From the NCBI GenBank assembly GCA_000002435.2, contig CM018792.1: a DNA stretch of 64,000 nucleotides. One strand, written 5' to 3'. The notes under the pieces are model-generated. The model did no database searches. It saw nothing but the letters and a program-made list of their open reading frames with translations, and had not been told where the DNA came from. Every line of letters begins with the position of its first letter. Position 1 is the stretch's first letter. A program made the position numbers and the translations under genes. This DNA is from Giardia intestinalis. Its lineage: Eukaryota. Below are positions 17,674 through 62,019 of the stretch, in pieces.

Positions 17674-18611
17674 ATACCAAACCTTTGTGATAGTTTTCTT
17701 GCCCGTTCCATGTCCATGCTTAGTACAGTTGATAGTCCTTTCCAAATGACAGGGTCGAACTCATGTTGGTAAGCAGAATCTACTTGATCATCTGATTGCT
17801 GCGTATCCGAAAAACAAATTGTTGACCTAACATATAAAGACTCATATTCGTGCTTATTAAGGTCTATTTGTAGACCATGAATTGCGTAAAGTCGTTGCTG
17901 TTCTATCTTATCTGTGTATCTTCTTATCGTAATTAATCCTTCTGCATACAATTGCGCTATATCAAAGATAGCATGCACCGTTCGAGTAAAGTCTGTTGGG
18001 CTGAGAAATACGAAGGCCAGGGGGTAGAAGCCGCGGCGCGAGAGCTCCGTGACCCGCGCGAGGAGCCCCTGCTTCCGGCGCTCCTGGAGCTCGGCGCCGC
18101 ACATCGCGAGGGCCTCGTAGCGCCGCCGCTCGACGGCCTGCGCGCCGGAGGGCTCTGCCTCCCGGGGCCGCGGGGGAGCCCTGGGGGCTGCGGGCCCTGC
18201 GGTGCCGGCGGCGCACCCCGCGTACAGCGAGGCCGCGAGCTCGGGCGGGAAGCGGGCGGCGTACCCGGCCTGGAACGCGTCGGCGAGGAGGCGCAGGTCG
18301 ACGCGCGGCGGGTCTGCAGGGGCCCCGGCCCGGGGGAGGAGCCGCAGCTGGCCGCGGAGGAAGCCGGCGCCCTGGTCCTCGGCCGCCCGGGCCACCCGCG
18401 CCTCCAGGCTCCGGGCAGACAGGCGCACCGTGGCGGACAGCGCGGCCTCCGTCTGCAGCATCAGGCCGACGTCCCCCCGGGGCTGGGCGGCGTAGGACTC
18501 GTAGCCGTCCCGGAGCTCGGCCAGGAGCGCCGTGACCGCCGCGTGGTCCCGGGCCTGCGCGGCCGCCTGCACCCGGGCGGAGACGCTCGCGAGGCGCGCA
18601 CGGGGCTCCAT
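17667..18611 (-). CDS. cassette gene A, full-length form (314 aa): GC-rich N-terminal ~202 codons fused in frame to ~111 host-composition codons
   Basis: The ATG at 18611 lies 11 nt from the A/T island 'gaatttt'. GC3 is near 100% up to 18012, and the same frame then continues without a stop through normal-composition DNA to the TGA at 17667. The upstream part of the 780-aa track ORF is a GC artefact. Confidence 0.65.
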   Translation of the reverse strand: MEPRARLASVSARVQAAAQARDHAAVTALLAELRDGYESYAAQPRGDVGLMLQTEAALSATVRLSARSLEARVARAAEDQGAGFLRGQLRLLPRAGAPADPPRVDLRLLADAFQAGYAARFPPELAASLYAGCAAGTAGPAAPRAPPRPREAEPSGAQAVERRRYEALAMCGAELQERRKQGLLARVTELSRRGFYPLAFVFLSPTDFTRTVHAIFDIAQLYAEGLITIRRYTDKIEQQRLYAIHGLQIDLNKHEYESLYVRSTICFSDTQQSDDQVDSAYQHEFDPVIWKGLSTVLSMDMERARKLSQRFGIQ

Positions 18612-18653
18612 CGGACGGGGCGGAATTTTGCCGGCCGGCCAAAAATTCACTCG
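18612..18653. promoter_or_regulatory. 42-bp divergent A/B promoter with near-palindromic A/T islands
   Basis: GAATTTTGCCGGCCGGCCAAAAATTC (18623-18648) sits between the two divergent ATGs. It is one of only about five A/T-rich spots in the whole block. Confidence 0.55.
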
Positions 18654-19793
18654 ATGGACTGCATCGGCCGCGGCGTCCTCCTCCCCCCGGGCGGGGCGTG
18701 CTCGTGCGGGGCGCTTCTGGCGGAGCTGCAGCGGGTCTGCCCCCTCCTCGCCGCCTCCCCGGGGGTCTGCGCCGCGCCCCGGGCCCTTGCGTGCTGCCAC
18801 CAGCCCCCGTGCCTCGAGATCGCGCCGGCGCCGGCCACCCCGCGCAGCGCCGTCCGGGTCCCTGGGTCCGCGTGCACGGCTCCACCGCCCGCCGCAGGGC
18901 CCCCGGAGGCCGCCCCGGCCGAGAGCGTCCAGGTGACCCTCAGCGCCCAGCGCGAGTCGTTCGTGATGCAGACGATGCGGCAGGCGCACTACGGCGGCGG
19001 AGAGGCCCCCGCGAGGGCGGAGAGCGCCCGCCTGCCCGCCCCGCAGGCCTCGGACCCGAGGGAGGCCCGGCGGAGCCACGCGTCCCGCCCGCGGACGGCC
19101 GGCCCCCGCCTCCCCGCCTGCCCCGAGGAGCCCCCCGGCAGGGTCCAGTTCCGGGGCGCCCCCGAGGCCCCGCCCCTGCGCTGCGAGCCGGCCCCGCCCT
19201 CCGAGTTCAGCGACTTCGGGTGCGAGCTGCTCGCGGCGGGCCAGCCCGAGGACCGGCGGGTCTGCGGCGCCCCGTGGGTGGACGCGCAGGACCTGCTGAG
19301 CGACGGCTCCGAGCACAGCGAGTTCTACCGCCTCGTCGAGAGGGAGCTCGCGCGGCTTCCGGAGCCCGCGGCCCCGGCCCTCCCGGAGAGCGAGCCCTCG
19401 CTGGACGCGCTGCCCGTGCACGCCTCGCCCCGGGGCCCGCAGATCATCGAGCCCACGCCGGCCGCCCTGCAGGAGCCAGAGGAGCCCGCGCCCCCGCAGC
19501 CCCCCACGCCGGGCCGCTCCGACAGCGTCTCGGCAGACATCACGGAGTCGCTCCTCGTGGAGGGCCGGCCCCTGCCCGACCGCCCCCCGGGCCCGGAGCC
19601 GTCCGAGGGCAGCGCCGGGTACAGCGGAGAGGCCTTCGACAGCTCCGGCTCGCCCCGGGGCCTGACCGACGAGGCCGCGGGGTCTGCGGGCCTGGACGAG
19701 GAGGACCTGCTGGGGTCCGTCGGCGGGGACCTGCGGGCGCTGCTCATGGACAGCGGGTCCGGGTCGCTGTCTGCGGGGGCCTGGCCGGAGTGA
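18654..19793 (+). CDS. cassette gene B: acidic, Pro/Ala-rich, probably disordered protein (379 aa)
   Basis: ATG preceded by 'ccaaaaattcactcg'. GC3 is near 100% in this frame. The TGA stop is embedded in AGTGAAC (19789-19795). The N-terminal ~100 codons are uncertain, because the substitution cluster there is mostly nonsynonymous. Confidence 0.55.
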   Translation: MDCIGRGVLLPPGGACSCGALLAELQRVCPLLAASPGVCAAPRALACCHQPPCLEIAPAPATPRSAVRVPGSACTAPPPAAGPPEAAPAESVQVTLSAQRESFVMQTMRQAHYGGGEAPARAESARLPAPQASDPREARRSHASRPRTAGPRLPACPEEPPGRVQFRGAPEAPPLRCEPAPPSEFSDFGCELLAAGQPEDRRVCGAPWVDAQDLLSDGSEHSEFYRLVERELARLPEPAAPALPESEPSLDALPVHASPRGPQIIEPTPAALQEPEEPAPPQPPTPGRSDSVSADITESLLVEGRPLPDRPPGPEPSEGSAGYSGEAFDSSGSPRGLTDEAAGSAGLDEEDLLGSVGGDLRALLMDSGSGSLSAGAWPE

Positions 19794-19795
19794 AC
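19789..19795 (+). terminator. AGTGAAC poly(A)-signal-like motif overlapping the gene B stop
   Basis: It matches the Giardia-type AGTRAAY consensus and is an isolated A/T-containing motif in GC-rich DNA. Confidence 0.5.
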
Positions 19796-19816
19796 TCGGG
19801 AGAGCCTTTTTATTGA

Positions 19817-22327
19817 ATGGATTCTGCGCCACTCGCCGTCGCGATCCGGGAGCACGTCCCGGGCCCGAGGCCCCCGCCGCGGCCGTCCGGGGGGCGGTCC
19901 CTCTTCGCGCAGGCCGTGGCCGCCGGGGCCGGACAGACCGGGAGGCCCTTCGCCCTCGGGCAGCCCCCGCCGCGCGCCCCGGCCCCAGCGCCGCCCCGGG
20001 GCCCCCCACCGCCCCCCGCCGCAGAGGACCCGGGCGGGCCCCTCCTCGGGTACGGGGGCGCCGCAGACCCGGAGGCCGTCCCGTTCTGCAGCGCGGCGGA
20101 CATCGGGCTCCTCTGCCGGTCGACGAACCCCGCCCAGCGCGAGTACGGGCTCCGGATGCTCGCGAACGCCGTCGCGCTCCGGCGCGTCCGGGACGGCGGC
20201 GCCCCCGACCCCGTCCTCGAGGCCCTGCTCTGCCTCCCCGCCGACCCGCACGCGTGCCCCTCGTCTGCCGGCCACCTCCTCCTCCTGGGCCTGCGGGACG
20301 CCCTGGAGTCCGGGAGCCCCGGCCTCCTCGACGCCGCCCTCTCCGGCCTCGCCACGGTCTTCGTCGCCGACGAGGGCTTCCTCAGCGAGACCGTCCACGT
20401 CGGGGCCGCGCTGCTCGGGCTGACGTCCAGCTCGGTCGCCTTCCCCCTCGGCTCCCTGCTGCGGCGGCTCGTCGAGCACGGGCTCCCGGGGCTCCTGGGC
20501 CAGGCCCTCGACGCCGCCGCGCGCGCAGACGAGCGGCGCCGGGAGCGGCTCGCCCACAGCGCGTACCTGCTGGCCGAGCGCGTGCTCATCGGCTGCTGCC
20601 CCGCAGACGAGCCCCCGGAGACCGCCGCCGGCCTGCGGGCCCTCGCGGAGCGGCTCCTCGCGGCGCTCCTGGGCGAGCTCGCCGGGCTGGCGGAGACGGG
20701 GGCCTTCCTGACGACCGCCTCCCGCGTCGCCCTCCGGACGCTCTGCTACGACCACGTCCTCGACGGCCACGCGCTCGGCCGGGACGCCGTCGCCCTCCTC
20801 GTCGAGTCCCTCGAGGCGTTCGTCGGGGCGCTCCCCGGCCAGGACGAGGCGGTCCGCACAGAGCTCCTCTCGGCCGCCACGCTCCACTACCTCCTCGTCG
20901 CCCGGGTCCTGCGGGGGAGCCCCGAGCTCTGCGCCCTGCACGCGGCCGTCTCTGCGACGTGCGCCGCCGCCCTGGAGCGCCACGCCCCGGCCGCCCCCGC
21001 GGAGCTCAGCGCGCTCCTCGTCCTGCTCCGGATCCTCCGGGCCCGGGCCGCCGTCCCCCGCGCGCGCCTGGGGCTCTCGGAGGCATGCTTCCGGCGGCTG
21101 GTCGACTGGCGGGCCCCGCCCGAGGCCGGGGGCTTCGCGCTGCCCCAGGGGCCCTCCGCGGCGTTCGCCCCGTTCTACGCCCTCGCGGCCGTCCAGTGGC
21201 GCGGCCCGGGCGAGTGGGGCGCGGCGGAGGCCTGGGTCGGCTGCGTGATGGACGTCCTCGCCAGCGGGCCCCCGGTCGCGCGCTGGGCGCCCCCGGCCGT
21301 CGACGCCCACCGGCGGGCAGGCGTGCTCCCGTGCGCGGTGACCGACGCAGGGGTCGCCCTCGCGCTCCTCGTCGCGGCCCTGGCGGCCGTCTGGGGCCCC
21401 GGGCTCCCGTTTGCCGCCGGCCTCGCCGAGCGGGTCGGGGAGCGCCTGGCAGGGCTCCCGGCCGAGTTCCGGTTCGTCGTCGCGTTCCCGCTCGCCCGGC
21501 TCCTCCCCCCGCTGCCCGCTATCGAGTGCGGGCTCTACCCGAACGCGGCGCTCCTCGGGGCGCTCCGGGCCGTCACGGGCCACCCGGGCTACGACCCCGC
21601 GGCAGAGGCGCTTGCGCACGTCGACGCCCGCTGCCCGTGCCCCGCGCTCGCGGCCCTCCACGCGGCGTGCGTGCTCGCCTCGGACGGGATGCGGCGCGAC
21701 GGGGCGTGGCGGCTCGCGGTCCTCCGGCTCGCGCTGCAGCGCCTGGCCGGGCTGGAGACCGCAGGGGCCGCCCGGGGCCGCGTCCTCGCGTACGGGCTCC
21801 TCTGCGTCCTCGACACGCTGACGGGCGTCTGTCGCCTCCCCCCGGACGCCGCGGCCCTCCTCGCGGAGACGCTCGCCGGGGTCCTCCGCCTCGCCCGCGC
21901 AGGCCCCGCCCCCGCCGCCGAGCTCCTCTACGCAGCGCCCGCCGGGGGGCTCCGGACGCTCGACGCCGCCGCCGGCGCGTTTGTCGAGGGCCTCCACGGG
22001 GGCGCGGCGGTGCTCCCCGAGGCCCCGCTCGTCTACCTCGCGCTCCTCCACCCGCAGCTCGTCCCGGACCCCCGCCGCCGGGCAGAGCTCTGGTCCGGGC
22101 TCGCGCTCCTGCGGCTCGACTTCGCGGCGCTCGACGGGGGCCTCCTCGCGGGGCTCTGCGAAGACGACCCCGCGCCCGTCCTCGCGTGCCTCGCGTGCTA
22201 CGAGCGCCGCGCAGAGACCGCCCTGTCGCGCCGCGTCCTCGCCCGGTACGCAGAGGCCCACCGGGGGCAGAGGCCCGACCGGGTCGTCGTCGCGGCCGTC
22301 GAGGAGGCCCTCCGACCAGCGGGCTAG
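19817..22327 (+). CDS. cassette gene C: 836-aa Ala/Leu-rich alpha-helical-repeat (ARM/HEAT-like) protein
   Basis: ATG preceded by 'cctttttattga'. GC3 is near 100%. Six of the 7 between-copy substitutions are third-position synonymous changes in this frame. The overlapping 925-aa (+) and 978-aa (-) ORFs are Arg/Pro/Gly low-complexity artefacts. Confidence 0.8.
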   Translation: MDSAPLAVAIREHVPGPRPPPRPSGGRSLFAQAVAAGAGQTGRPFALGQPPPRAPAPAPPRGPPPPPAAEDPGGPLLGYGGAADPEAVPFCSAADIGLLCRSTNPAQREYGLRMLANAVALRRVRDGGAPDPVLEALLCLPADPHACPSSAGHLLLLGLRDALESGSPGLLDAALSGLATVFVADEGFLSETVHVGAALLGLTSSSVAFPLGSLLRRLVEHGLPGLLGQALDAAARADERRRERLAHSAYLLAERVLIGCCPADEPPETAAGLRALAERLLAALLGELAGLAETGAFLTTASRVALRTLCYDHVLDGHALGRDAVALLVESLEAFVGALPGQDEAVRTELLSAATLHYLLVARVLRGSPELCALHAAVSATCAAALERHAPAAPAELSALLVLLRILRARAAVPRARLGLSEACFRRLVDWRAPPEAGGFALPQGPSAAFAPFYALAAVQWRGPGEWGAAEAWVGCVMDVLASGPPVARWAPPAVDAHRRAGVLPCAVTDAGVALALLVAALAAVWGPGLPFAAGLAERVGERLAGLPAEFRFVVAFPLARLLPPLPAIECGLYPNAALLGALRAVTGHPGYDPAAEALAHVDARCPCPALAALHAACVLASDGMRRDGAWRLAVLRLALQRLAGLETAGAARGRVLAYGLLCVLDTLTGVCRLPPDAAALLAETLAGVLRLARAGPAPAAELLYAAPAGGLRTLDAAAGAFVEGLHGGAAVLPEAPLVYLALLHPQLVPDPRRRAELWSGLALLRLDFAALDGGLLAGLCEDDPAPVLACLACYERRAETALSRRVLARYAEAHRGQRPDRVVVAAVEEALRPAG

Positions 22328-22328
22328 C

Positions 22329-22335
22329 GTTCACT
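22329..22335 (-). terminator. AGTGAAC poly(A)-signal-like motif overlapping the kinase stop
   Basis: The minus strand reads TGAGTGAAC. Only 7 bp separate the convergent stops of C and D. Confidence 0.5.
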
Positions 22336-23264
22336 CAATCAGGGGCACCTGACCCCAGGGCGGCCCGCAGGCCCGCGACCTCCCCCCGGAGCCGGGCGAC
22401 CTCGTCCTCCAGGGCCTTGAAGCGCAGGGCCGTCGCGACCGCAGGCGCCCCGCCCTCTGCGTCGAGGAGCTCCACGAGGGCCGCGGCGGTGAGGCGGCGC
22501 TCCGGCTCCAGGACGAGGAGGTGGGCGAGGACGCCCCGGACGACGGGGTCCCCGACCGCGCCCAGGTCCGGCCGCCAGCCCGCGACGTAGACCTCCGCGG
22601 GGGCCCGCCCGGAGAGGAACGGGGGCCTGCCGCCCGCCGCGAGCTCGTAGGCGACCATCCCGAGGCTCCACATGTCCGCGGCCGGCGTGTGGCTCCCGCC
22701 CCGCAGGACCTCCGGCGCGGCGTAGACGGGGACGGCCATGGAGGCGAGCCCCCCGGGGCCCTCCCTGCAGAGCCCGAAGTCGGAGATGGCGAACTCCGCC
22801 CCGGCCTCGTCGAGGAGGACGTTCGCGGGCCGCAGGTCGCAGTGCGTGAGGGCGGGGAGCGGGGCGCCCGCGGCGTCGGTCTTCCCGGGCCGGTGGAGGT
22901 AGGCGAGCCCCGCGCCCACCTGGCGGAGGACGGCGACGACCATCTCGCGCGGGGCGAGCTGCCTTCTGCGGCGGAGGCTCCGGATGGCCCCGTCGAGGGA
23001 GCCTGCGTAGCGCCGCATCTCGACGTAGATGTAGCCCTCGTGCCGGACGACGCGCCCGTACTCGACGACGTTCGGGTGGCGGAGGCGCGGGAGGGTCCGG
23101 AGCTCGAGCTCGAGCGAGGCCTGCGCGTCGGGGGGCAGCCCGTCGGTCGGGATCTCCTTGACCGCCCTGTCGGGGGCGCTCTTCAGGCCGTAGACGGTCC
23201 CGTGGGCCCCGCTCCCGAGCTCTGCGCCCAGGTCTTCGAGGAGGGCGTCGATGGCCTCGGACAT
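22335..23264 (-). CDS. cassette gene D: NEK-like Ser/Thr protein kinase with short coiled-coil tail (309 aa)
   Basis: ATG preceded by 'attaaaaag'. Motifs are LGSGAHGTVY, AVKEI, HPNVVEY, HCDLRPANVLL, SDFGL, AAPEV and DMWSLG. The TGA stop overlaps AGTGAAC. Confidence 0.9.
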   Translation of the reverse strand: MSEAIDALLEDLGAELGSGAHGTVYGLKSAPDRAVKEIPTDGLPPDAQASLELELRTLPRLRHPNVVEYGRVVRHEGYIYVEMRRYAGSLDGAIRSLRRRRQLAPREMVVAVLRQVGAGLAYLHRPGKTDAAGAPLPALTHCDLRPANVLLDEAGAEFAISDFGLCREGPGGLASMAVPVYAAPEVLRGGSHTPAADMWSLGMVAYELAAGGRPPFLSGRAPAEVYVAGWRPDLGAVGDPVVRGVLAHLLVLEPERRLTAAALVELLDAEGGAPAVATALRFKALEDEVARLRGEVAGLRAALGSGAPD

Positions 23265-23268
23265 CTTT

Positions 23269-23595
23269 TTAATCCGCGACTGGGCGATTGGGTGGGCTCA
23301 ATCGCTTGGGCTCAGATCGGGGCCTGTATAGATTCACCGAACAGATATGACAATTAGCGCACTTACTACCTAAGTTACGTCTTCCTGCAGCAGAAAAATC
23401 CAATGAGACCACCGCGCTCTTAGTAATATTAGAATTTGCGCATTTTGTCTTATCGTTATTAGAGTCAAAGATTTTTATCCTGGCACAATTATTGGATCTG
23501 TCCTTGTAGTTAGTAGTGGAAAATCCCACTCCACATGATGTTTGTGCCCATATAAACTGGATAATTAAGGCAACAAACACAAATCTGCCAAGCAT
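23269..23595 (-). CDS. small ORF with signal-peptide-like N-terminus, reading into the right end of copy 1 (doubtful)
   Basis: ATG at 23595 and a hydrophobic N-terminus, MLGRFVFVALIIQFIWA. The first 93 codons are host-composition DNA, and the last 15 codons plus the stop lie inside the repeat. Confidence 0.25.
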   Translation of the reverse strand: MLGRFVFVALIIQFIWAQTSCGVGFSTTNYKDRSNNCARIKIFDSNNDKTKCANSNITKSAVVSLDFSAAGRRNLGSKCANCHICSVNLYRPRSEPKRLSPPNRPVAD

Positions 23596-56287: not shown

Positions 56288-56911
56288 CTAAAGAGTAAGC
56301 TTAAGAAATACGAAGGCCAGGGGGTAGAAGCCGCGGCGCGAGAGCTCCGTGACCCGCGCGAGGAGCCCCTGCTTCCGGCGCTCCTGGAGCTCGGCGCCGC
56401 ACATCGCGAGGGCCTCGTAGCGCCGCCGCTCGACGGCCTGCGCGCCGGAGGGCTCTGCCTCCCGGGGCCGCGGGGGAGCCCTGGGGGCTGCGGGCCCTGC
56501 GGTGCCGGCGGCGCACCCCGCGTACAGCGAGGCCGCGAGCTCGGGCGGGAAGCGGGCGGCGTACCCGGCCTGGAACGCGTCGGCGAGGAGGCGCAGGTCG
56601 ACGCGCGGCGGGTCTGCAGGGGCCCCGGCCCGGGGGAGGAGCCGCAGCTGGCCGCGGAGGAAGCCGGCGCCCTGGTCCTCGGCCGCCCGGGCCACCCGCG
56701 CCTCCAGGCTCCGGGCAGACAGGCGCACCGTGGCGGACAGCGCGGCCTCCGTCTGCAGCATCAGGCCGACGTCCCCCCGGGGCTGGGCGGCGTAGGACTC
56801 GTAGCCGTCCCGGAGCTCGGCCAGGAGCGCCGTGACCGCCGCGTGGTCCCGGGCCTGCGCGGCCGCCTGCACCCGGGCGGAGACGCTCGCGAGGCGCGCA
56901 CGGGGCTCCAT
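56288..56911 (-). CDS. cassette gene A, C-terminally truncated form (207 aa)
   Basis: Codons 1-202 are identical to copy 1. At the repeat edge the frame runs into the local flank and ends ...FVFLKLTL then TAG. Confidence 0.5.
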   Translation of the reverse strand: MEPRARLASVSARVQAAAQARDHAAVTALLAELRDGYESYAAQPRGDVGLMLQTEAALSATVRLSARSLEARVARAAEDQGAGFLRGQLRLLPRAGAPADPPRVDLRLLADAFQAGYAARFPPELAASLYAGCAAGTAGPAAPRAPPRPREAEPSGAQAVERRRYEALAMCGAELQERRKQGLLARVTELSRRGFYPLAFVFLKLTL

Positions 56912-56953
56912 CGGACGGGGCGGAATTTTGCCGGCCGGCCAAAAATTCACTCG

Positions 56954-58093
56954 ATGGACTGCATCGGCCGCGGCGTCCTCCTCCCCCCGGGCGGGGCGTG
57001 CTCGTGCGGGGCGCTTCTGGCGGAGCTGCAGCGGGTCTGCCCCCTCCTCGCCGCCTCCCCGGAGGTCTGCGCCGCGCCCCGGGCCCTTGTCTGCTGCCGC
57101 CAGCCCCCGTGCCTCGAGATCGCGCCGGCGCCGGCCACCCCGAGCAGCGCCGTCCGGGTCCCTGGGTCCGCGTGCACGGCTCCACCGCCCGCCGCAGGGC
57201 CCCCGGAGGCCGCCCCGGCCGAGAGCGTCCAGGTGACCCTCAGCGCCCAGCGCGAGTCGTTCGTGATGCAGACGATGCGGCAGGCGCACTACGGCGGCGG
57301 AGAGGCCCCCGCGAGGGCGGAGAGCGCCCGCCTGCCCGCCCCGCAGGCCTCGGACCCGAGGGAGGCCCGGCGGAGCCACGCGTCCCGCCCGCGGACGGCC
57401 GGCCCCCGCCTCCCCGCCTGCCCCGAGGAGCCCCCCGGCAGGGTCCAGTTCCGGGGCGCCCCCGAGGCCCCGCCCCTGCGCTGCGAGCCGGCCCCGCCCT
57501 CCGAGTTCAGCGACTTCGGGTGCGAGCTGCTCGCGGCGGGCCAGCCCGAGGACCGGCGGGTCTGCGGCGCCCCGTGGGTGGACGCGCAGGACCTGCTGAG
57601 CGACGGCTCCGAGCACAGCGAGTTCTACCGCCTCGTCGAGAGGGAGCTTGCGCGGCTTCCGGAGCCCGCGGCCCCGGCCCTCCCGGAGAGCGAGCCCTCG
57701 CTGGACGCGCTGCCCGTGCACGCCTCGCCCCGGGGCCCGCAGATCATCGAGCCCACGCCGGCCGCCCTGCAGGAGCCAGAGGAGCCCGCGCCCCCGCAGC
57801 CCCCCACGCCGGGCCGCTCCGACAGCGTCTCGGCAGACATCACGGAGTCGCTCCTCGTGGAGGGCCGGCCCCTGCCCGACCGCCCCCCGGGCCCGGAGCC
57901 GTCCGAGGGCAGCCCCGGGTACAGCGGAGAGGCCTTCGACAGCTCCGGCTCGCCCCGGGGCCTGACCGACGAGGCCGCGGGGTCTGCGGGCCTGGACGAG
58001 GAGGACCTGCTGGGGTCCGTCGGCGGGGACCTGCGGGCGCTGCTCATGGACAGCGGGTCCGGGTCGCTGTCTGCGGGGGCCTGGCCGGAGTGA
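56954..58093 (+). CDS. cassette gene B, copy 2
   Basis: It has the same signals as copy 1 and differs by 5 amino-acid changes and 1 synonymous change. Confidence 0.55.
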   Translation: MDCIGRGVLLPPGGACSCGALLAELQRVCPLLAASPEVCAAPRALVCCRQPPCLEIAPAPATPSSAVRVPGSACTAPPPAAGPPEAAPAESVQVTLSAQRESFVMQTMRQAHYGGGEAPARAESARLPAPQASDPREARRSHASRPRTAGPRLPACPEEPPGRVQFRGAPEAPPLRCEPAPPSEFSDFGCELLAAGQPEDRRVCGAPWVDAQDLLSDGSEHSEFYRLVERELARLPEPAAPALPESEPSLDALPVHASPRGPQIIEPTPAALQEPEEPAPPQPPTPGRSDSVSADITESLLVEGRPLPDRPPGPEPSEGSPGYSGEAFDSSGSPRGLTDEAAGSAGLDEEDLLGSVGGDLRALLMDSGSGSLSAGAWPE

Positions 58094-58116
58094 ACTCGGG
58101 AGAGCCTTTTTATTGA

Positions 58117-60627
58117 ATGGATTCTGCGCCACTCGCCGTCGCGATCCGGGAGCACGTCCCGGGCCCGAGGCCCCCGCCGCGGCCGTCCGGGGGGCGGTCC
58201 CTCTTCGCGCAGGCCGTGGCCGCCGGGGCCGGGCAGACCGGAAGGCCCTTCGCCCTCGGGCAGCCCCCGCCGCGCGCCCCGGCCCCAGCGCCGCCCCGGG
58301 GCCCCCCACCGCCCCCCGCCGCAGAGGACCCGGGCGGGCCCCTCCTCGGGTACGGGGGCGCCGCAGACCCGGAGGCCGTCCCGTTCTGCAGCGCGGCGGA
58401 CATCGGGCTCCTCTGCCGGTCGACGAACCCCGCTCAGCGCGAGTACGGGCTCCGGATGCTCGCGAACGCCGTCGCGCTCCGGCGCGTCCGGGACGGCGGC
58501 GCCCCCGATCCCGTCCTCGAGGCCCTGCTCTGCCTCCCCGCCGACCCGCACGCGTGCCCCTCGTCTGCCGGCCACCTCCTCCTCCTGGGCCTGCGAGACG
58601 CCCTGGAGTCCGGGAGCCCCGGCCTCCTCGACGCCGCCCTCTCCGGCCTCGCCACGGTCTTCGTCGCCGACGAGGGCTTCCTCAGCGAGACCGTCCACGT
58701 CGGGGCCGCGCTGCTCGGGCTGACGTCCAGCTCGGTCGCCTTCCCCCTCGGCTCCCTGCTGCGGCGGCTCGTCGAGCACGGGCTCCCGGGGCTCCTGGGC
58801 CAGGCCCTCGACGCCGCCGCGCGCGCAGACGAGCGGCGCCGGGAGCGGCTCGCCCACAGCGCGTACCTGCTGGCCGAGCGCGTGCTCATCGGCTGCTGCC
58901 CCGCAGACGAGCCCCCGGAGACCGCCGCCGGCCTGCGGGCCCTCGCGGAGCGGCTCCTCGCGGCGCTCCTGGGCGAGCTCGCCGGGCTGGCGGAGACGGG
59001 GGCCTTCCTGACGACCGCCTCCCGCGTCGCCCTCCGGACGCTCTGCTACGACCACGTCCTCGACGGCCACGCGCTCGGCCGGGACGCCGTCGCCCTCCTC
59101 GTCGAGTCCCTCGAGGCGTTCGTCGGGGCGCTCCCCGGCCAGGACGAGGCGGTCCGCACAGAGCTCCTCTCGGCCGCCACGCTCCACTACCTCCTCGTCG
59201 CCCGGGTCCTGCGGGGGAGCCCCGAGCTCTGCGCCCTGCACGCGGCCGTCTCTGCGACGTGCGCCGCCGCCCTGGAGCGCCACGCCCCGGCCGCCCCCGC
59301 GGAGCTCAGCGCGCTCCTCGTCCTGCTCCGGATCCTCCGGGCCCGGGCCGCCGTCCCCCGCGCGCGCCTGGGGCTCTCGGAGGCATGCTTCCGGCGGCTG
59401 GTCGACTGGCGGGCCCCGCCCGAGGCCGGGGGCTTCGCGCTGCCTCGGGGGCCCTCCGCGGCGTTCGCCCCGTTCTACGCCCTCGCGGCCGTCCAGTGGC
59501 GCGGCCCGGGCGAGTGGGGCGCGGCGGAGGCCTGGGTCGGCTGCGTGATGGACGTCCTCGCCAGCGGGCCCCCGGTCGCGCGCTGGGCGCCCCCGGCCGT
59601 CGACGCCCACCGGCGGGCAGGCGTGCTCCCGTGCGCGGTGACCGACGCAGGGGTCGCCCTCGCGCTCCTCGTCGCGGCCCTGGCGGCCGTCTGGGGCCCC
59701 GGGCTCCCGTTTGCCGCCGGCCTCGCCGAGCGGGTCGGGGAGCGCCTGGCAGGGCTCCCGGCCGAGTTCCGGTTCGTCGTCGCGTTCCCGCTCGCCCGGC
59801 TCCTCCCCCCGCTGCCCGCTATCGAGTGCGGGCTCTACCCGAACGCGGCGCTCCTCGGGGCGCTCCGGGCCGTCACGGGCCACCCGGGCTACGACCCCGC
59901 GGCAGAGGCGCTTGCGCACGTCGACGCCCGCTGCCCGTGCCCCGCGCTCGCGGCCCTCCACGCGGCGTGCGTGCTCGCCTCGGACGGGATGCGGCGCGAC
60001 GGGGCGTGGCGGCTCGCGGTCCTCCGGCTCGCGCTGCAGCGCCTGGCCGGGCTGGAGACCGCAGGGGCCGCCCGGGGCCGCGTCCTCGCGTACGGGCTCC
60101 TCTGCGTCCTCGACACGCTGACGGGCGTCTGTCGCCTCCCCCCGGACGCCGCGGCCCTCCTCGCGGAGACGCTCGCCGGGGTCCTCCGCCTCGCCCGCGC
60201 AGGCCCCGCCCCCGCCGCCGAGCTCCTCTACGCAGCGCCCGCCGGGGGGCTCCGGACGCTCGACGCCGCCGCCGGCGCGTTTGTCGAGGGCCTCCACGGG
60301 GGCGCGGCGGTGCTCCCCGAGGCCCCGCTCGTCTACCTCGCGCTCCTCCACCCGCAGCTCGTCCCGGACCCCCGCCGCCGGGCAGAGCTCTGGTCCGGGC
60401 TCGCGCTCCTGCGGCTCGACTTCGCGGCGCTCGACGGGGGCCTCCTCGCGGGGCTCTGCGAAGACGACCCCGCGCCCGTCCTCGCGTGCCTCGCGTGCTA
60501 CGAGCGCCGCGCAGAGACCGCCCTGTCGCGCCGCGTCCTCGCCCGGTACGCAGAGGCCCACCGGGGGCAGAGGCCCGACCGGGTCGTCGTCGCGGCCGTC
60601 GAGGAGGCCCTCCGACCAGCGGGCTAG
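58117..60627 (+). CDS. cassette gene C, copy 2 (836 aa)
   Basis: The ORF is intact, with one replacement (Q->R) and 6 synonymous differences relative to copy 1. Confidence 0.8.
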   Translation: MDSAPLAVAIREHVPGPRPPPRPSGGRSLFAQAVAAGAGQTGRPFALGQPPPRAPAPAPPRGPPPPPAAEDPGGPLLGYGGAADPEAVPFCSAADIGLLCRSTNPAQREYGLRMLANAVALRRVRDGGAPDPVLEALLCLPADPHACPSSAGHLLLLGLRDALESGSPGLLDAALSGLATVFVADEGFLSETVHVGAALLGLTSSSVAFPLGSLLRRLVEHGLPGLLGQALDAAARADERRRERLAHSAYLLAERVLIGCCPADEPPETAAGLRALAERLLAALLGELAGLAETGAFLTTASRVALRTLCYDHVLDGHALGRDAVALLVESLEAFVGALPGQDEAVRTELLSAATLHYLLVARVLRGSPELCALHAAVSATCAAALERHAPAAPAELSALLVLLRILRARAAVPRARLGLSEACFRRLVDWRAPPEAGGFALPRGPSAAFAPFYALAAVQWRGPGEWGAAEAWVGCVMDVLASGPPVARWAPPAVDAHRRAGVLPCAVTDAGVALALLVAALAAVWGPGLPFAAGLAERVGERLAGLPAEFRFVVAFPLARLLPPLPAIECGLYPNAALLGALRAVTGHPGYDPAAEALAHVDARCPCPALAALHAACVLASDGMRRDGAWRLAVLRLALQRLAGLETAGAARGRVLAYGLLCVLDTLTGVCRLPPDAAALLAETLAGVLRLARAGPAPAAELLYAAPAGGLRTLDAAAGAFVEGLHGGAAVLPEAPLVYLALLHPQLVPDPRRRAELWSGLALLRLDFAALDGGLLAGLCEDDPAPVLACLACYERRAETALSRRVLARYAEAHRGQRPDRVVVAAVEEALRPAG

Positions 60628-60634
60628 CGTTCAC

Positions 60635-61564
60635 TCAATCAGGGGCACCTGACCCCAGGGCGGCCCGCAGGCCCGCGACCTCCCCCCGGAGCCGGGCGAC
60701 CTCGTCCTCCAGGGCCTTGAAGCGCAGGGCCGTCGCGACCGCAGGCGCCCCGCCCTCTGCGTCGAGGAGCTCCACGAGGGCCGCGGCGGTGAGGCGGCGC
60801 TCCGGCTCCAGGACGAGGAGGTGGGCGAGGACGCCCCGGACGACGGGGTCCCCGACCGCGCCCAGGTCCGGCCGCCAGCCCGCGACGTAGACCTCCGCGG
60901 GGGCCCGCCCGGAGAGGAACGGGGGCCTGCCGCCCGCCGCGAGCTCGTAGGCGACCATCCCGAGGCTCCACATGTCCGCGGCCGGCGTGTGGCTCCCGCC
61001 CCGCAGGACCTCCGGCGCGGCGTAGACGGGGACGGCCATGGAGGCGAGCCCCCCGGGGCCCTCCCTGCAGAGCCCGAAGTCGGAGATGGCGAACTCCGCC
61101 CCGGCCTCGTCGAGGAGGACGTTCGCGGGCCGCAGGTCGCAGTGCGTGAGGGCGGGGAGCGGGGCGCCCGCGGCGTCGGTCTTCCCGGGCCGGTGGAGGT
61201 AGGCGAGCCCCGCGCCCACCTGGCGGAGGACGGCGACGACCATCTCGCGCAGGGCGAGCTGCCTTCTGCGGCGGAGGCTCCGGATGGCCCCGTCGAGGGA
61301 GCCTGCGTAGCGCCGCATCTCGACGTAGATGTAGCCCTCGTGCCGGACGACGCGCCCGTACTCGACGACGTTCGGGTGGCGGAGGCGCGGGAGGGTCCGG
61401 AGCTCGAGCTCGAGCGAGGCCTGCGCGTCGGGGGGCAGCCCGTCGGTCGGGATCTCCTTGACCGCCCTGTCGGGGGCGCTCTTCAGGCCGTAGACGGTCC
61501 CGTGGGCCCCGCTCCCGAGCTCTGCGCCCAGGTCTTCGAGGAGGGCGTCGATGGCCTCGGACAT
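60635..61564 (-). CDS. cassette gene D, NEK-like kinase, copy 2
   Basis: The ATG at 61564 follows 'attaaaaag'. There is one replacement (P->L). The 15-codon upstream extension in the track ORF (start 61609) is created by the 8-bp insertion and lacks an initiator. Confidence 0.9.
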   Translation of the reverse strand: MSEAIDALLEDLGAELGSGAHGTVYGLKSAPDRAVKEIPTDGLPPDAQASLELELRTLPRLRHPNVVEYGRVVRHEGYIYVEMRRYAGSLDGAIRSLRRRRQLALREMVVAVLRQVGAGLAYLHRPGKTDAAGAPLPALTHCDLRPANVLLDEAGAEFAISDFGLCREGPGGLASMAVPVYAAPEVLRGGSHTPAADMWSLGMVAYELAAGGRPPFLSGRAPAEVYVAGWRPDLGAVGDPVVRGVLAHLLVLEPERRLTAAALVELLDAEGGAPAVATALRFKALEDEVARLRGEVAGLRAALGSGAPD

Positions 61565-62019
61565 CTTTTTAATCCGCGACTGGGCGATTGGGTGATTGGG
61601 CGGGCTCAATCGCTTGGGCTCAGACTGAGATACCGCCTAGCTGAGCGCCGCTCAATGAGGGTGATCGGGCGGAATTGAACGAAAAGGAAAGGACCCGACC
61701 ATCGTTCCAGAGATGGCTTGACCGAGTTCGCCTGTCGACTAGGATCAGATCAGGCAGCTAGTACTGGACTACTCACTATCAATATGTATTCTATCACTGG
61801 AGTTATGGAACAGCTAAGTGAAGTCTATATTCTTAAGATGAATCTTAATTGTCAATAATTGATGTTTACAAATCTGGAGTCTCTGCATCTTAGGTCAATC
61901 CTAAATAGGTAAATATGAGCATGTCCAGATAAAGTTTACTGTCAACCCACATAGTAAGATAAGTTAAAGCAGATTACGACCTCCGAGGTTGAAAGAGGGA
62001 ATGCTTGTTGATGACCTCA

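What the first reader, a model, noticed from the sequence alone, without database searches (positions are those of the whole stretch)
18004..23316. Extreme-GC four-gene block embedded in a normal-composition diplomonad chromosome (copy 1 of 2)
Composition flips within about 10 bp at each edge.
- Flanking 60-nt lines I counted are 35% and 48% GC.
- Lines inside the block are 73%, 78% and 80% GC.

The block is present twice in the window in direct orientation, at an offset of exactly 38300 bp. It carries four tightly packed genes: A on the minus strand, B and C on the plus strand, and D on the minus strand. Spacers between them are 42, 23 and 7 bp.

The genes look host-adapted rather than foreign in three ways.
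- The initiators are A/T-rich and sit directly upstream of each ATG.
- AGTGAAC motifs overlap the stops of B and D.
- The kinase is of the NEK-like type that is expanded in Giardia.

There is no transposase, reverse transcriptase, integrase, capsid gene, TIR or LTR.

Candidate explanations (inference):
1. A multicopy segment driven to high GC by GC-biased gene conversion among copies. Giardia rDNA is similarly GC-rich.
2. An old horizontally acquired or viral island that has adopted host expression signals.
3. A novel non-canonical mobile cassette.

I know of no described element of this kind.
Basis: partly seen in the sequence, partly recalled or inferred. Interest (0 to 1): 0.9.

Follow-up and report, generated by a model that had tools for sequence, protein, structure and literature searches.

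The report
Hyper-GC native gene block, Giardia
A 5.3-kb, ~79% GC block present twice in this Giardia intestinalis WB chromosome is made of the parasite's own, already annotated genes, whose extreme composition arose after the split from Giardia muris, most likely through GC-biased gene conversion among repeated copies; it is not foreign DNA, rDNA or a transposon.

Summary
Window 18004-23316 is ~79% GC in 41-50% GC flanks and recurs at 56304-61624 (99.57% identical, flanks unrelated).

The window is the Giardia intestinalis WB C6 reference. The genes are already annotated: B = GL50803_23876, C = GL50803_60704, D = a 'Kinase, NEK', each with a 'd' duplicate.

The block is composite:
- an A-B-C module (18004-22328);
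- a 1-kb kinase module (22329-23316), which has a third, solo copy next to GWT1. That position is conserved in assemblages A2 and E and in a distant lineage.

The genes are native:
- C has a G. muris orthologue of ordinary composition (53% GC, GC3 0.55).
- It has orthologues at 64-79% GC in four other G. duodenalis-complex lineages.
- No viral, metagenomic or prokaryotic relatives, transposase, TIR or LTR were found, and Rfam finds no rRNA.

The GC shift affects all codon positions. GARP residues in C rise from 25% to 49%. Synonymous sites are pinned to G/C (fourfold divergence 0.11 against 0.28 in neighbours), yet GC-neutral G<->C changes are 3.5-fold higher.

Kinase copies are homogenised in assemblage A and mosaic in B.

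Best reading: native, segmentally duplicated genes driven to extreme GC by a GC-favouring fixation bias, most likely gBGC. The gBGC step is inferred, not shown.

The parts
18004..23316 (.). Copy 1 of the hyper-GC block (~79% GC), made of the A-B-C module plus the D module
   Evidence: Composition profile; blastn of copy 1 against copy 2, 99.57% identity; direct-repeat family at spacing 38300.
56304..61624 (.). Copy 2 of the block, 8 bp longer because of one extra CCCAATC-type unit in the kinase promoter
17898..18611 (-). Gene A, copy 1. There is no stop inside the block, so the ORF runs 106 bp into the flank. The copy 2 equivalent is 56288-56911 (207 aa). An orthologue with its own stop exists in L008 (171 aa).
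   Evidence: WB versus L008: 107 of 162 residues identical, dN/dS 0.74. No Pfam family. Weakest gene model of the four.
18654..19793 (+). Gene B = GL50803_00d23876 (379 aa; copy 2 at 56954-58093 = GL50803_0023876). Probably a largely unstructured protein (my reading of its composition; disorder was not computed), with conserved short motifs.
   Evidence: Exact-sequence look-up; orthologues upstream of C in L005-L008; alignment A3; no Pfam family; no prokaryotic relative.
19817..22327 (+). Gene C = GL50803_00d60704 (836 aa; copy 2 at 58117-60627 = GL50803_0060704). An armadillo/HEAT-type alpha-solenoid protein and orthologue of G. muris GMRT_14638.
22335..23264 (-). Gene D, 'Kinase, NEK' (309 aa; copy 2 at 60635-61564). 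All catalytic motifs are present. Probably the Nek-GL1 trio 101307 / 86934 of the kinome paper.
   Evidence: Pfam Pkinase 4e-32; motifs GSGAHG, AVK, HCDLRPAN, DFG, APE; names; PMC3218828 and PMC3792122. The identification with the trio rests on length (930 nt) and a 3:1:1 copy ratio.
22329..23316 (-). D module: a 1-kb repeat unit of its own (copy 2 at 60629-61624), with a third solo copy at the GWT1 locus elsewhere on the chromosome
   Evidence: blastn of L009, L010 and L015 against the window begins at 22329 and ends at 23316 or 23331. GWT1 synteny in DH, P15 and L017.
18612..18653 (.). Divergent A/B promoter spacer with two A/T-rich initiators (AATTTT at 18624, AAAAATT at 18641)
19789..19816 (+). 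AGTGAAC polyadenylation-type motif overlapping the B stop, followed by the C initiator TTTTTATT (19807)
22329..22335 (-). AGTGAAC motif overlapping the D stop, inside the 7-bp C/D spacer
23265..23316 (-). D promoter: ATTAAAAAG initiator plus tandem CCCAATC(A/G) 8-mers. Copy 2 has one more unit (61565-61624).
   Evidence: The motif is conserved upstream of D in DH and P15.
17996..18006 (+). TTGGGCTGAGA across the left junction of copy 1, a 10/11 direct repeat of the block's right terminus TTGGGCTCAGA (23306-23316; 61614-61624)
   Evidence: These are the only three matches with at most one mismatch in the 64-kb window.

Best explanation
**What it is (shown).** The block is ordinary Giardia chromosomal DNA. 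It consists of two native gene modules:
- A-B-C, where C is an old Giardia armadillo-repeat protein with a G. muris orthologue and more distant homologues from unidentified sequencing runs;
- D, an apparently active Nek-type kinase.

These have been copied by segmental duplication. WB carries two A-B-C-D copies 38.3 kb apart, plus a solo D at its conserved home next to GWT1.

**Why it is so GC-rich (inferred).** The ~79% GC (GC3 0.96) is a derived state that arose after the split from G. muris. It is maintained by a strong force that favours fixation of G/C over A/T. I think this force is most likely GC-biased gene conversion, arising from frequent recombinational exchange among the dispersed copies and among the four genome copies of this tetraploid cell (two diploid nuclei).

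Heteroduplex can form only inside the shared repeat unit. The bias would therefore stop at the unit's edges, which explains the abrupt composition flips.

Selection keeps the few A/T-rich signals the genes need (initiators, AGTGAAC) and the protein folds. Everything else, including about a quarter of the residues of C, has drifted to G/C-rich codons (Gly, Ala, Arg, Pro).

**How the 5.3-kb duplication arose (inferred).** It probably arose from copy 1 by a microhomology-mediated event between the two TTGGGCTSAGA repeats.
For: **Native origin (shown)**
- Flanking and block proteins are exact matches to G. intestinalis WB entries.
- C has a G. muris orthologue (E = 4e-107) at 52.9% GC, GC3 0.55, in a 56.8% GC region.
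- B-C order is kept in four other lineages, and A-B-C order in L008.
- D lies next to GWT1/U3 in DH, P15 and L017.

**Not foreign or mobile**
- No rRNA by Rfam.
- No viral, metagenome or prokaryote relatives.
- No homologues beyond four diplomonad-type proteins in 1.84 billion representatives.
- No TIR or LTR.

**A pervasive compositional force**
- GC1/GC2/GC3 of C are 0.85/0.58/0.96.
- GARP residues of C are 0.25 in G. muris, 0.36 in L007 and 0.49 in WB.
- In-block non-coding DNA is 55.6% GC despite its A/T-rich initiators.

**Evidence that low synonymous divergence reflects pinning to G/C**
- It is not what low mutation or recent transfer would give.
- Fourfold-site divergence between WB and assemblage E is 0.11 in block genes against 0.28 in neighbours.
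- G<->C changes are 63/894 against 8/404 (Fisher p = 1e-4).
- dN/dS is about 0.5 against 0.05-0.25 in neighbours.
- Young variants lean strong-to-weak, 9 to 3. The GC* they imply is 0.56, against 0.79 observed.

**Conversion among copies**
- WB D copies differ by dS of 0.008 or less.
- Assemblage B kinases combine 3 N-terminal heads with 2 C-terminal tails on mosaic cores. P0100 and P0102 have identical cores with different tails.
- Contig L001 is a mosaic of copy 1 and copy 2 alleles.

**Edges**
- GC falls within about 25 bp at the ends of the repeat unit in WB, DH, P15 and L017.

**Literature**
- Giardia genes in gene-conversion tracts are GC-enriched (PMC12669663).
- gBGC has been proposed for Giardia rDNA (PMC10123126).
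- Gene GC in Giardia spans 39.1-81.1% with SD 5.2, so the block genes sit at the extreme top (PMC8393687).

**Duplication mechanism**
- The 10/11 direct repeat lies exactly at the junctions of copy 1.
Against: - No direct measurement of a conversion bias exists for Giardia. I could not obtain allele-frequency spectra, which are the standard way to separate gBGC from mutation bias.
- Copy number is unknown in P15, L017, L007 and L008, where the genes are also GC islands. If they are single-copy there, exchange between loci cannot be the whole cause. Allelic conversion or a local hotspot would then be needed.
- VSP genes are far more repeated and recombinogenic but, on my general knowledge of Giardia, reach only about 55-65% GC. 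The only figures seen here are 0.65-0.74 at the end of one P15 VSP gene.
- The island matches the coding or transcription unit as well as the repeat unit, so a transcription-linked process is not excluded.
- The elevated G<->C rate also fits a raised local mutation rate.
- The excess of strong-to-weak young variants is not significant (p = 0.15).
- L007 and L017 show much lower GC (0.59-0.66), and I could not resolve whether that is decay or a less advanced state.
Confidence: 0.6

Rival explanations
1. Local mutation bias or hypermutation. The region is a mutational hotspot (for example error-prone repair synthesis at frequent breaks) whose spectrum is skewed to G/C, with no fixation bias.
For: - GC-neutral G<->C changes at fourfold sites are 3.5-fold higher than in neighbours.
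- All codon positions and non-coding bases are shifted.
- dN/dS is raised.
Against: - Total fourfold-site divergence is 2.6-fold lower than in neighbours. A pure hotspot should raise it.
- Young variants between copies and isolates run mostly strong-to-weak (9 to 3), implying a mutational equilibrium near 56% GC, not 79%. The sample is small.
Confidence: 0.15
2. Selection on the sequence itself, either translational or mRNA-level selection for G/C-ending codons or selection for a GC-rich DNA or RNA property (structure, chromatin, expression control).
For: - In Giardia, optimal codons end in G or C, and CAI correlates with GC3 (r = 0.90; PMC8393687).
- The island coincides with coding units.
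- Synonymous sites are strongly constrained.
Against: - GC1 and GC2 and the amino-acid composition are shifted massively (GARP 0.25 to 0.49). Codon selection does not predict that.
- Spacer DNA is also enriched.
- The probable SAGE signal of the kinase is the lowest 'max' value (37.8) among the rows of that table I read (PMC3218828).
- The G. muris orthologue does without the GC shift.
Confidence: 0.12
3. A non-canonical mobile cassette that copies itself (or is copied through a circular intermediate) to new sites near variable surface-antigen genes.
For: - WB has two A-B-C-D copies and three D copies with sharp ends and unrelated flanks.
- Assemblage E lacks the block next to NOG1 and has a VSP gene there.
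- D's solo locus abuts VSP- or HCMP-type genes.
- A 10/11 direct repeat lies at the junctions of copy 1.
Against: - No transposase, RT or integrase, and no TIR or LTR.
- The repeat occurs only at copy 1 and overlaps sequence that belongs to the D unit at the third locus. It reads as donor-site microhomology, not a target-site duplication.
- 6.9% of the WB genome consists of such duplications (PMC7000408).
- The genes have fixed, syntenic orthologues.
Confidence: 0.05
4. An old horizontally acquired or viral island from a high-GC donor that later adopted host signals.
For: - Extreme compositional contrast.
- A and B have no detectable homologues outside the G. duodenalis complex.
Against: - C has a normal-GC G. 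muris orthologue and two more distant homologues of non-GC-rich amino-acid composition.
- D is a Giardia NEK at a conserved syntenic site.
- GC differs by lineage (0.64 to 0.80) for the same genes.
- No viral, metagenome or prokaryote relatives.
Confidence: 0.02
5. Assembly chimera or contamination.
For: None beyond the compositional contrast. Short-read contigs break at the block edges.
Against: - Independent assemblies contain the same sequence (L001 and L002).
- The right junction of copy 1 is present in the DH assembly (ESU35269 reads from the flank into D) and in L009. The right junction of copy 2 is present in L010.
- Orthologues exist in five other lineages.
- Host promoter and poly(A) motifs are present.
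Confidence: 0.01

Closest known systems
GC-biased gene conversion islands in genes that enter a recombination hotspot. The classic case is mouse Fxy, which straddles the pseudoautosomal boundary. Others are the GC-rich 'hidden' genes of birds and the sand-rat ParaHox 'dark DNA' region. All recalled from my own knowledge and not checked in papers here.
   Same: - A sharply bounded, derived rise in GC at all codon positions.
- Amino-acid replacement towards Gly, Ala, Arg and Pro, and raised dN/dS.
- The genes drop out of short-read or 454 assemblies. C is absent from the DH, GS, P15 and BAH15c1 proteomes, though orthologues exist in run assemblies.
   Different: - The host is a tetraploid protist with no known meiosis.
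- The islands are single genes or 4-5 kb units in a 46% GC, gene-dense genome.
- Total synonymous divergence is lowered, not raised.
- The recombination partner is probably a dispersed paralogue or another genome copy, not a meiotic hotspot.
gBGC in multigene families and rDNA under concerted evolution: mammalian histones and Hsp70 (from my own knowledge), and rDNA (Escobar et al. 2011, as cited in PMC10123126).
   Same: - Multicopy units are homogenised by conversion and are GC-richer than their surroundings.
- Giardia's own rDNA is the in-genome precedent. PMC10123126 calls it uniquely GC-rich; the ~75% figure is from my own knowledge.
   Different: - There are only 2-3 copies, they are protein-coding, and they are dispersed over tens to hundreds of kb.
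- They reach a GC as high as or higher than the rDNA.
- They have no similarity to rRNA.
Ordinary Giardia segmental duplications, the 'd' genes of the Xu et al. 2020 WB assembly (PMC7000408).
   Same: - Direct duplication of a multi-gene segment, with members of the NEK family involved.
- Located at a synteny break next to variable surface-protein genes.
   Different: The composition. Typical duplicated segments are not reported as 79% GC.

Membership tests
gBGC-driven GC island | GC is derived (raised) relative to an outgroup orthologue | tested here: met
   C is 0.529 GC (GC3 0.55) in G. muris and 0.798 (GC3 0.96) in WB.
gBGC-driven GC island | The shift affects all codon positions, the amino-acid composition and non-coding bases | tested here: met
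   GC1/GC2/GC3 are 0.85/0.58/0.96. GARP rises from 0.25 to 0.49. In-block non-coding DNA is 0.556 GC, against 0.468 in a crude intergenic sample outside the block.
gBGC-driven GC island | Association with recombination or gene conversion | tested here: met
   The evidence is indirect. D copies are near-identical in WB. Assemblage B shows mosaic head, core and tail combinations. Contig L001 is a mosaic of copy 1 and copy 2. Island edges coincide with repeat-unit edges.
gBGC-driven GC island | A fixation bias: weak-to-strong alleles segregate at higher frequency than strong-to-weak, or the mutational input is AT-biased while the composition is GC-rich | tested here: inconclusive
   Young variants run strong-to-weak 9 and weak-to-strong 3 (p = 0.15), implying GC* of 0.56 against 0.79 observed. 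No population frequency data were available.
Transposable element or mobile cassette | Encodes a transposase, RT or integrase, or has TIRs or LTRs | tested here: not met
   Pfam finds only Pkinase. No terminal repeats.
Transposable element or mobile cassette | Target-site duplication at each insertion | tested here: not met
   A 10/11 direct repeat is seen only at copy 1 and is part of the D unit itself. Copy 2 has none.
Horizontally acquired or viral island | Closest homologues lie outside the host lineage, and the genes are absent from relatives | tested here: not met
   C has a G. muris orthologue, and its only other homologues are two proteins from unidentified runs. D is syntenic across assemblages. 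Viral, metagenome and prokaryote scans were negative.
rDNA unit (the other very GC-rich element of Giardia) | Contains SSU, 5.8S and LSU rRNA | tested here: not met
   Rfam at gathering threshold gives 0 hits over the whole window.
Protein kinase, Nek family (gene D) | Kinase domain with intact catalytic motifs | tested here: met
   Pkinase 4.4e-32. GSGAHG, AVK, HCDLRPAN, DFG and APE are all present.
Protein kinase, Nek family (gene D) | Groups with Nek kinases in a phylogeny | not tested
   The 'Kinase, NEK' label is from the source annotation. The Nek-GL1 assignment is by inference from PMC3218828.
RPAP1 (gene C) | RPAP1_N and RPAP1_C domains above the Pfam threshold | tested here: not met
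   RPAP1_C scores only 13.7-17.2 bits (cut-off 27), at the same position in WB C, three of its four G. duodenalis-complex orthologues and P0098, but not in L007's or G. muris's. There is no RPAP1_N. It remains a weak lead.
Armadillo/HEAT alpha-solenoid (gene C) | All-helical repeat fold matching solved ARM or HEAT proteins | tested here: met

The most novel reading that the evidence does not exclude
Giardia, long debated as an ancient asexual, may harbour a small class of 'dark' hyper-GC protein-coding genes. In this reading they are made by intense, sharply localised GC-biased gene conversion that is strong enough to rewrite a quarter of a protein's residues. These loci would then be natural reporters of where and how often recombinational exchange occurs between paralogues, homologues and the two nuclei. 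They would also be systematically missing from short-read Giardia assemblies and comparative gene lists.
Probability: 0.4. Interest if true: 0.7.

Novelty: new member of a known kind. Interest (0 to 1): 0.5.

Why it matters
1. **A window on recombination in Giardia.** This is a clean, extreme example of composition evolving away from function. A conserved Giardia protein went from 53% to 80% GC while staying under constraint. If gBGC is the cause, it is sequence-level evidence for frequent recombinational exchange in an organism whose sexuality is disputed, and the block gives a locus where that can be measured.

2. **A practical warning for comparative genomics.** These genes are nearly invisible to 454 and Illumina assemblies.
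   - Protein C is missing from the annotated DH, GS, P15 and BAH15c1 proteomes.
   - It was found with an exact sequence in only 2 sequencing runs, while a flanking protein is listed in 98 blocks of the collection.
   - The report that regions 'missing from GS' are GC-richer (PMC2723961) may therefore partly reflect sequencing dropout rather than real gene loss.

3. **It closes off more exotic readings.** Foreign DNA, virus, novel transposon and rDNA are all removed for a striking feature of the reference genome.

Tried and rejected
- **rDNA unit.** This was my first guess from the size and GC. Rfam gives no hit in the whole window.
- **RPAP1 identity for C.** A sub-threshold RPAP1_C match recurs (13.7-17.2 bits against a cut-off of 27). 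A wider profile found no RPAP1-named relatives and no PDB relative. Fold searches give only generic armadillo/HEAT hits.
- **First AF2 model of C.** It was too poor to use (pLDDT 47.7). The afdb50 fold library was unavailable.
- **Copy 1 truncates a VSP gene.** The flanking 108-aa ORF has a signal-peptide-like start, but it shows no similarity to the P15 VSP at the syntenic site.
- **Direction of L007's lower GC.** The 221:7 strong-to-weak excess on its branch cannot be rooted. With G. muris as an amino-acid outgroup the split is 10 ancestral, 12 derived and 52 uninformative, and the topology is unresolved.
- **Special strand asymmetry at third positions.** C3/(C3+G3) is 0.52-0.61, within the range of normal genes.
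- **Recent exchange between assemblages as the cause of low dS.** Rejected, because G<->C divergence is higher, not lower, than in neighbours.
- **Literature.** No paper names GL50803_60704 or 23876 in its text. The SRA run accessions were not found in any paper, so the lineages behind L005, L007, L008 and L017 are unnamed. Supplements of PMC12669663 are not held.
- **Context in other lineages.** Contig look-ups were exhausted before I could fetch the 6.1-6.4 kb assemblage B contigs or the 7.8-kb L007-lineage contig that probably carry C-D linkage and flanks.

Full report
**1.

A 1-kb composition profile shows GC of 0.78-0.81 from 18001 to 23000 and again from about 56300 to 61600. The rest of the window is 0.41-0.53.

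blastn of the two regions gives one alignment of 5321 columns at 99.57% identity (15 substitutions and one 8-bp indel). Nothing aligns outside it. The left edges are exactly 38300 bp apart, and copy 2 ends at 61624.

- The left flip takes about 30 bp.
- The right flip takes 60-90 bp, across the kinase promoter.

At 80% GC, long ORFs appear in every frame.

The only four A/T runs of 6 nt or more in the 5.3 kb sit directly upstream of the four ATGs. AGTGAAC overlaps the stops of B and D.

One correction: ORF A has no stop inside the block. It reads out through the left edge and ends differently in the two copies.

**2. Where the window comes from**

Exact-sequence look-ups place the window in the Giardia intestinalis WB C6 reference, on a 2.76-Mb chromosome. 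The flanking genes include NOG1, INO80, kinesin-16 and cathepsin L.

The block genes are already annotated:

| Gene | Copy 2 | Copy 1 |
|---|---|---|
| B | GL50803_0023876 | GL50803_00d23876 |
| C | GL50803_0060704 | GL50803_00d60704 |
| D | 'Kinase, NEK' | 'Kinase, NEK' |

In that assembly the letter 'd' marks duplicated genes, and 6.9% of the genome is duplicated (PMC7000408).

I found no paper that names B or C in its text, and none that discusses their composition.

**3. It is not rDNA, foreign DNA or a transposon**

My first guess was an rDNA unit, since Giardia's rDNA is also very GC-rich. Rfam finds nothing in the whole window.

- Pfam detects only a protein-kinase domain, in D.
- There are no terminal inverted or long terminal repeats.
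- A profile of C, scored against 1.84 billion representative proteins, finds only four proteins. These are the L008 orthologue, G. muris GMRT_14638 (E = 4e-107), and two more distant proteins from unidentified sequencing runs whose amino-acid composition is not GC-rich.
- Scans of viral contigs, JGI metagenomes and 185,579 prokaryotic genomes found no relative of C (viral, metagenome) or of B (prokaryotes).

**4. The block is composite**

The kinase module (window 22329-23316) begins inside the 7-bp C/D spacer and ends 52 bp upstream of D's ATG. It also occurs alone at a third locus. In the DH (A2) NCBI assembly it forms a 1-kb island of 0.76-0.78 GC in about 0.45 GC flanks, next to the GWT1 and U3-associated genes.

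The same position next to GWT1 is conserved in P15 (assemblage E) and in a more distant lineage, L017. That locus therefore looks like D's ancestral home.

Conversely, in lineage L008 the A-B-C module is bounded by normal-GC DNA on both sides, with nothing GC-rich after C.

Next to NOG1, the P15 contig is syntenic with the window only down to 23615 and then carries a VSP gene instead of the block. At the GWT1 locus, a VSP gene (ending ...CRGKA*) in P15 and a cysteine-rich membrane-protein-like gene in DH lie just upstream of D.

The modules therefore sit at synteny breaks beside variable surface-antigen genes.

**5. The high GC is derived and specific to these genes**

| Sequence | Lineage | GC | GC3 |
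|---|---|---|---|
| C | G. muris (local region 0.568) | 0.529 | 0.55 |
| C | L007 | 0.658 | 0.73 |
| C | WB, L005, L006 (assemblage B), L008 | 0.79-0.80 | 0.93-0.97 |
| D | L017 | 0.59 | 0.75 |
| D's neighbours | L017 | - | 0.29-0.38 |
| D | WB | 0.765 | 0.96 |
| D's neighbours | WB | - | 0.43-0.48 |

The excess over the local background is thus shared by all sampled lineages of the G. duodenalis complex and is absent in G. muris.

The shift is not confined to synonymous sites. GC1/GC2/GC3 of C are 0.85/0.58/0.96. Gly+Ala+Arg+Pro residues rise from 0.25 (G. muris) to 0.36 (L007) to 0.49 (WB), while Phe/Tyr/Met/Ile/Asn/Lys fall from 0.16 to 0.05. Flanking genes have about 0.2 and 0.25.

Across 5968 Giardia genes, GC ranges from 39.1% to 81.1% (mean 49.0, SD 5.2; PMC8393687). 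The block genes therefore sit at the very top of the distribution.

**6. The genes are constrained but evolve oddly**

- Between the two WB copies, 6 of 7 differences in C are synonymous. In B, 5 of 7 are non-synonymous.
- Across lineages, dN/dS is about 0.3-0.6 for B, C and D and 0.74 for A, against 0.04-0.25 for GWT1 and U3.
- dS is 4-6 times lower than in neighbours (WB against E: 0.11 against 0.49-0.72).

The low dS does not reflect low mutation or recent exchange between assemblages:

| Fourfold sites, WB against E | Block genes | Neighbours |
|---|---|---|
| Total divergence | 0.11 | 0.28 |
| G<->C changes (neutral to GC pressure) | 63/894 | 8/404 |

The G<->C difference is 3.5-fold, with Fisher p = 1e-4. 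Synonymous sites are therefore pinned to G/C while exchange among G and C is rapid.

Young variants between copies and isolates, polarised with outgroups, run strong-to-weak 9, weak-to-strong 3 and strong-to-strong 2. The mutational equilibrium they imply is near 56% GC, far below the observed 79%. The sample is small, however (p = 0.15).

**7. Evidence for exchange among copies**

- The three WB D copies differ by dS of 0.008 or less.
- In assemblage B, kinase variants combine three different N-terminal heads with two different C-terminal tails on mosaic cores. I take the heads and tails to be locus-specific flanks. P0100 (GS isolate, one tail) and P0102 (the other tail) have identical cores.
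- An independent assembly contig (L001) carries copy 2 alleles at 18763-20134 and copy 1 alleles at 20209-21147.
- In assemblage B, the C and D orthologues are listed with the same longest-contig lengths (6397 and 6132 bp). This suggests that C-D linkage also exists there, but I could not fetch those contigs.

**8. Mechanism**

The steps that are shown:
- native genes;
- segmental duplication;
- derived GC;
- pervasive compositional change;
- synonymous sites pinned to G/C;
- homogenised or mosaic copies.

The inferred step is the cause. I favour GC-biased gene conversion, acting during exchange among dispersed copies and among the four genome copies, and confined to the homologous unit. That confinement would explain why GC falls within about 25 bp at the unit's ends.

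Supporting context:
- Giardia genes lying in gene-conversion tracts are GC-enriched (PMC12669663).
- gBGC has been suggested for Giardia's GC-rich subtelomeric rDNA (PMC10123126).

Weak points:
- Copy number is unknown in several lineages that also show the island.
- VSP families recombine a great deal yet are, on general knowledge, less GC-rich.
- The raised G<->C rate also fits locally raised mutation.
- A transcription-linked process is not excluded, because in Giardia the repeat unit, the coding unit and the transcription unit nearly coincide.
- Third-position C/G partition is within the normal range, so there is no special strand asymmetry.

**9. How the 5.3-kb duplicate arose**

TTGGGCTSAGA occurs only three times in the window: at both right termini and exactly across copy 1's left junction.

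The DH third locus shares 15 more bases with copy 1's right flank than copy 2 does. A plausible order is therefore:
1. D at the GWT1 locus.
2. D beside A-B-C at the copy 1 site.
3. Duplication of 18004-23316 to the copy 2 site, by a microhomology-mediated event.

This order is inferred.

**10. What the genes do**

- **D.** It keeps all the catalytic motifs. It is very probably the 'almost identical' active Nek-GL1 pair 101307 / 86934_mod, which has a WB:GS:P15 ratio of 3:1:1 and SAGE tags in trophozoites and encysting cells (PMC3218828). A transcribed, then-unannotated 930-nt 'gene repeat' similar to them was reported by TSS-seq/RNA-seq (PMC3792122), and D's CDS is exactly 930 nt. The match rests on length and copy number, not on sequence.
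- **A and B.** They have no detectable family, and A is the weakest gene model.

**11. Verdict**

The finding is real and striking, but it is neither foreign DNA nor a new kind of element.

It is a new, extreme member of a known kind: multicopy or recombination-prone genes driven to high GC, as with Fxy in the mouse pseudoautosomal region, the 'hidden' GC-rich genes of birds, and rDNA. Here it occurs in an organism where it has not, to my knowledge, been described for protein-coding genes.

The block also illustrates a blind spot. C is absent from the annotated proteomes of DH, GS, P15 and BAH15c1, although orthologues turn up in run-level assemblies. This fits the earlier remark that regions 'missing from GS' are GC-richer (PMC2723961).

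Noticed in passing
window 17996-18006, 23306-23316, 61614-61624: TTGGGCTSAGA (at most 1 mismatch) occurs only at these three places in 64 kb. One copy lies exactly across copy 1's left junction and one at each right terminus. Copy 1's segment is therefore bounded by a 10/11 direct repeat, a microhomology signature.
   Followed up: partly
window 23278-23300 and 61578-61608 (minus strand): The kinase promoter carries tandem CCCAATC(A/G) 8-mers just upstream of the ATTAAAAAG initiator. The motif is conserved in DH and P15. The only indel between the two window copies is one such unit. It may be a regulatory element.
   Followed up: partly
L009 1-2699 and L010 1-2584 (Logan contigs of SRR10368394 and SRR10368402): These contigs join copy 1's right flank (L009) or copy 2's right flank (L010) to the kinase and then run on into the GWT1 side of the third locus. 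They are either assembler paths through the 1-kb repeat or real recombinants between kinase copies.
   Followed up: no
L001 (DRR745022), corresponding to window 18004-22371: This independent contig is a mosaic. It carries copy 2 alleles at 18763-20134 and copy 1 alleles at 20209-21147. That indicates either a conversion tract or a collapsed assembly of the two copies.
   Followed up: no
window 23269-23595 (minus strand): A 108-aa ORF with a signal-peptide-like N-terminus and several cysteines reads into the kinase promoter. In DH it is annotated as fused to the kinase (ESU35269, 421 aa). It has no significant similarity to the VSP found at the syntenic place in P15.
   Followed up: yes
window 7985-9307 (+): A 440-aa ORF whose product carries a Pfam Hom_end_hint (PF05203, homing-endonuclease-associated Hint) hit in the precomputed annotation of the same gene in other runs. 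That is unexpected for a Giardia chromosomal gene.
   Followed up: no
L007 (ERR3333382) and L017 (SRR17450158): An unidentified Giardia lineage (or two lineages) with a generally lower GC (GWT1 GC3 0.29). Its C and D orthologues are only 0.66 and 0.59 GC, yet they are still islands. Whether this is decay or a less advanced state could not be resolved.
   Followed up: partly
window 18004-23316 versus 24000-56000: CpG observed/expected is 1.05 inside the block and 0.78 in the normal-GC interval between the copies.
   Followed up: no
L020 8492-9910 (G. muris CM016928.1): In G. muris the gene directly upstream of the C orthologue is an ankyrin-plus-kinase NEK, 31-34% identical to D over about 210 residues. 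A NEK-C neighbourhood may therefore be old, although orientation and architecture differ. No A or B homologue was detected nearby.
   Followed up: partly
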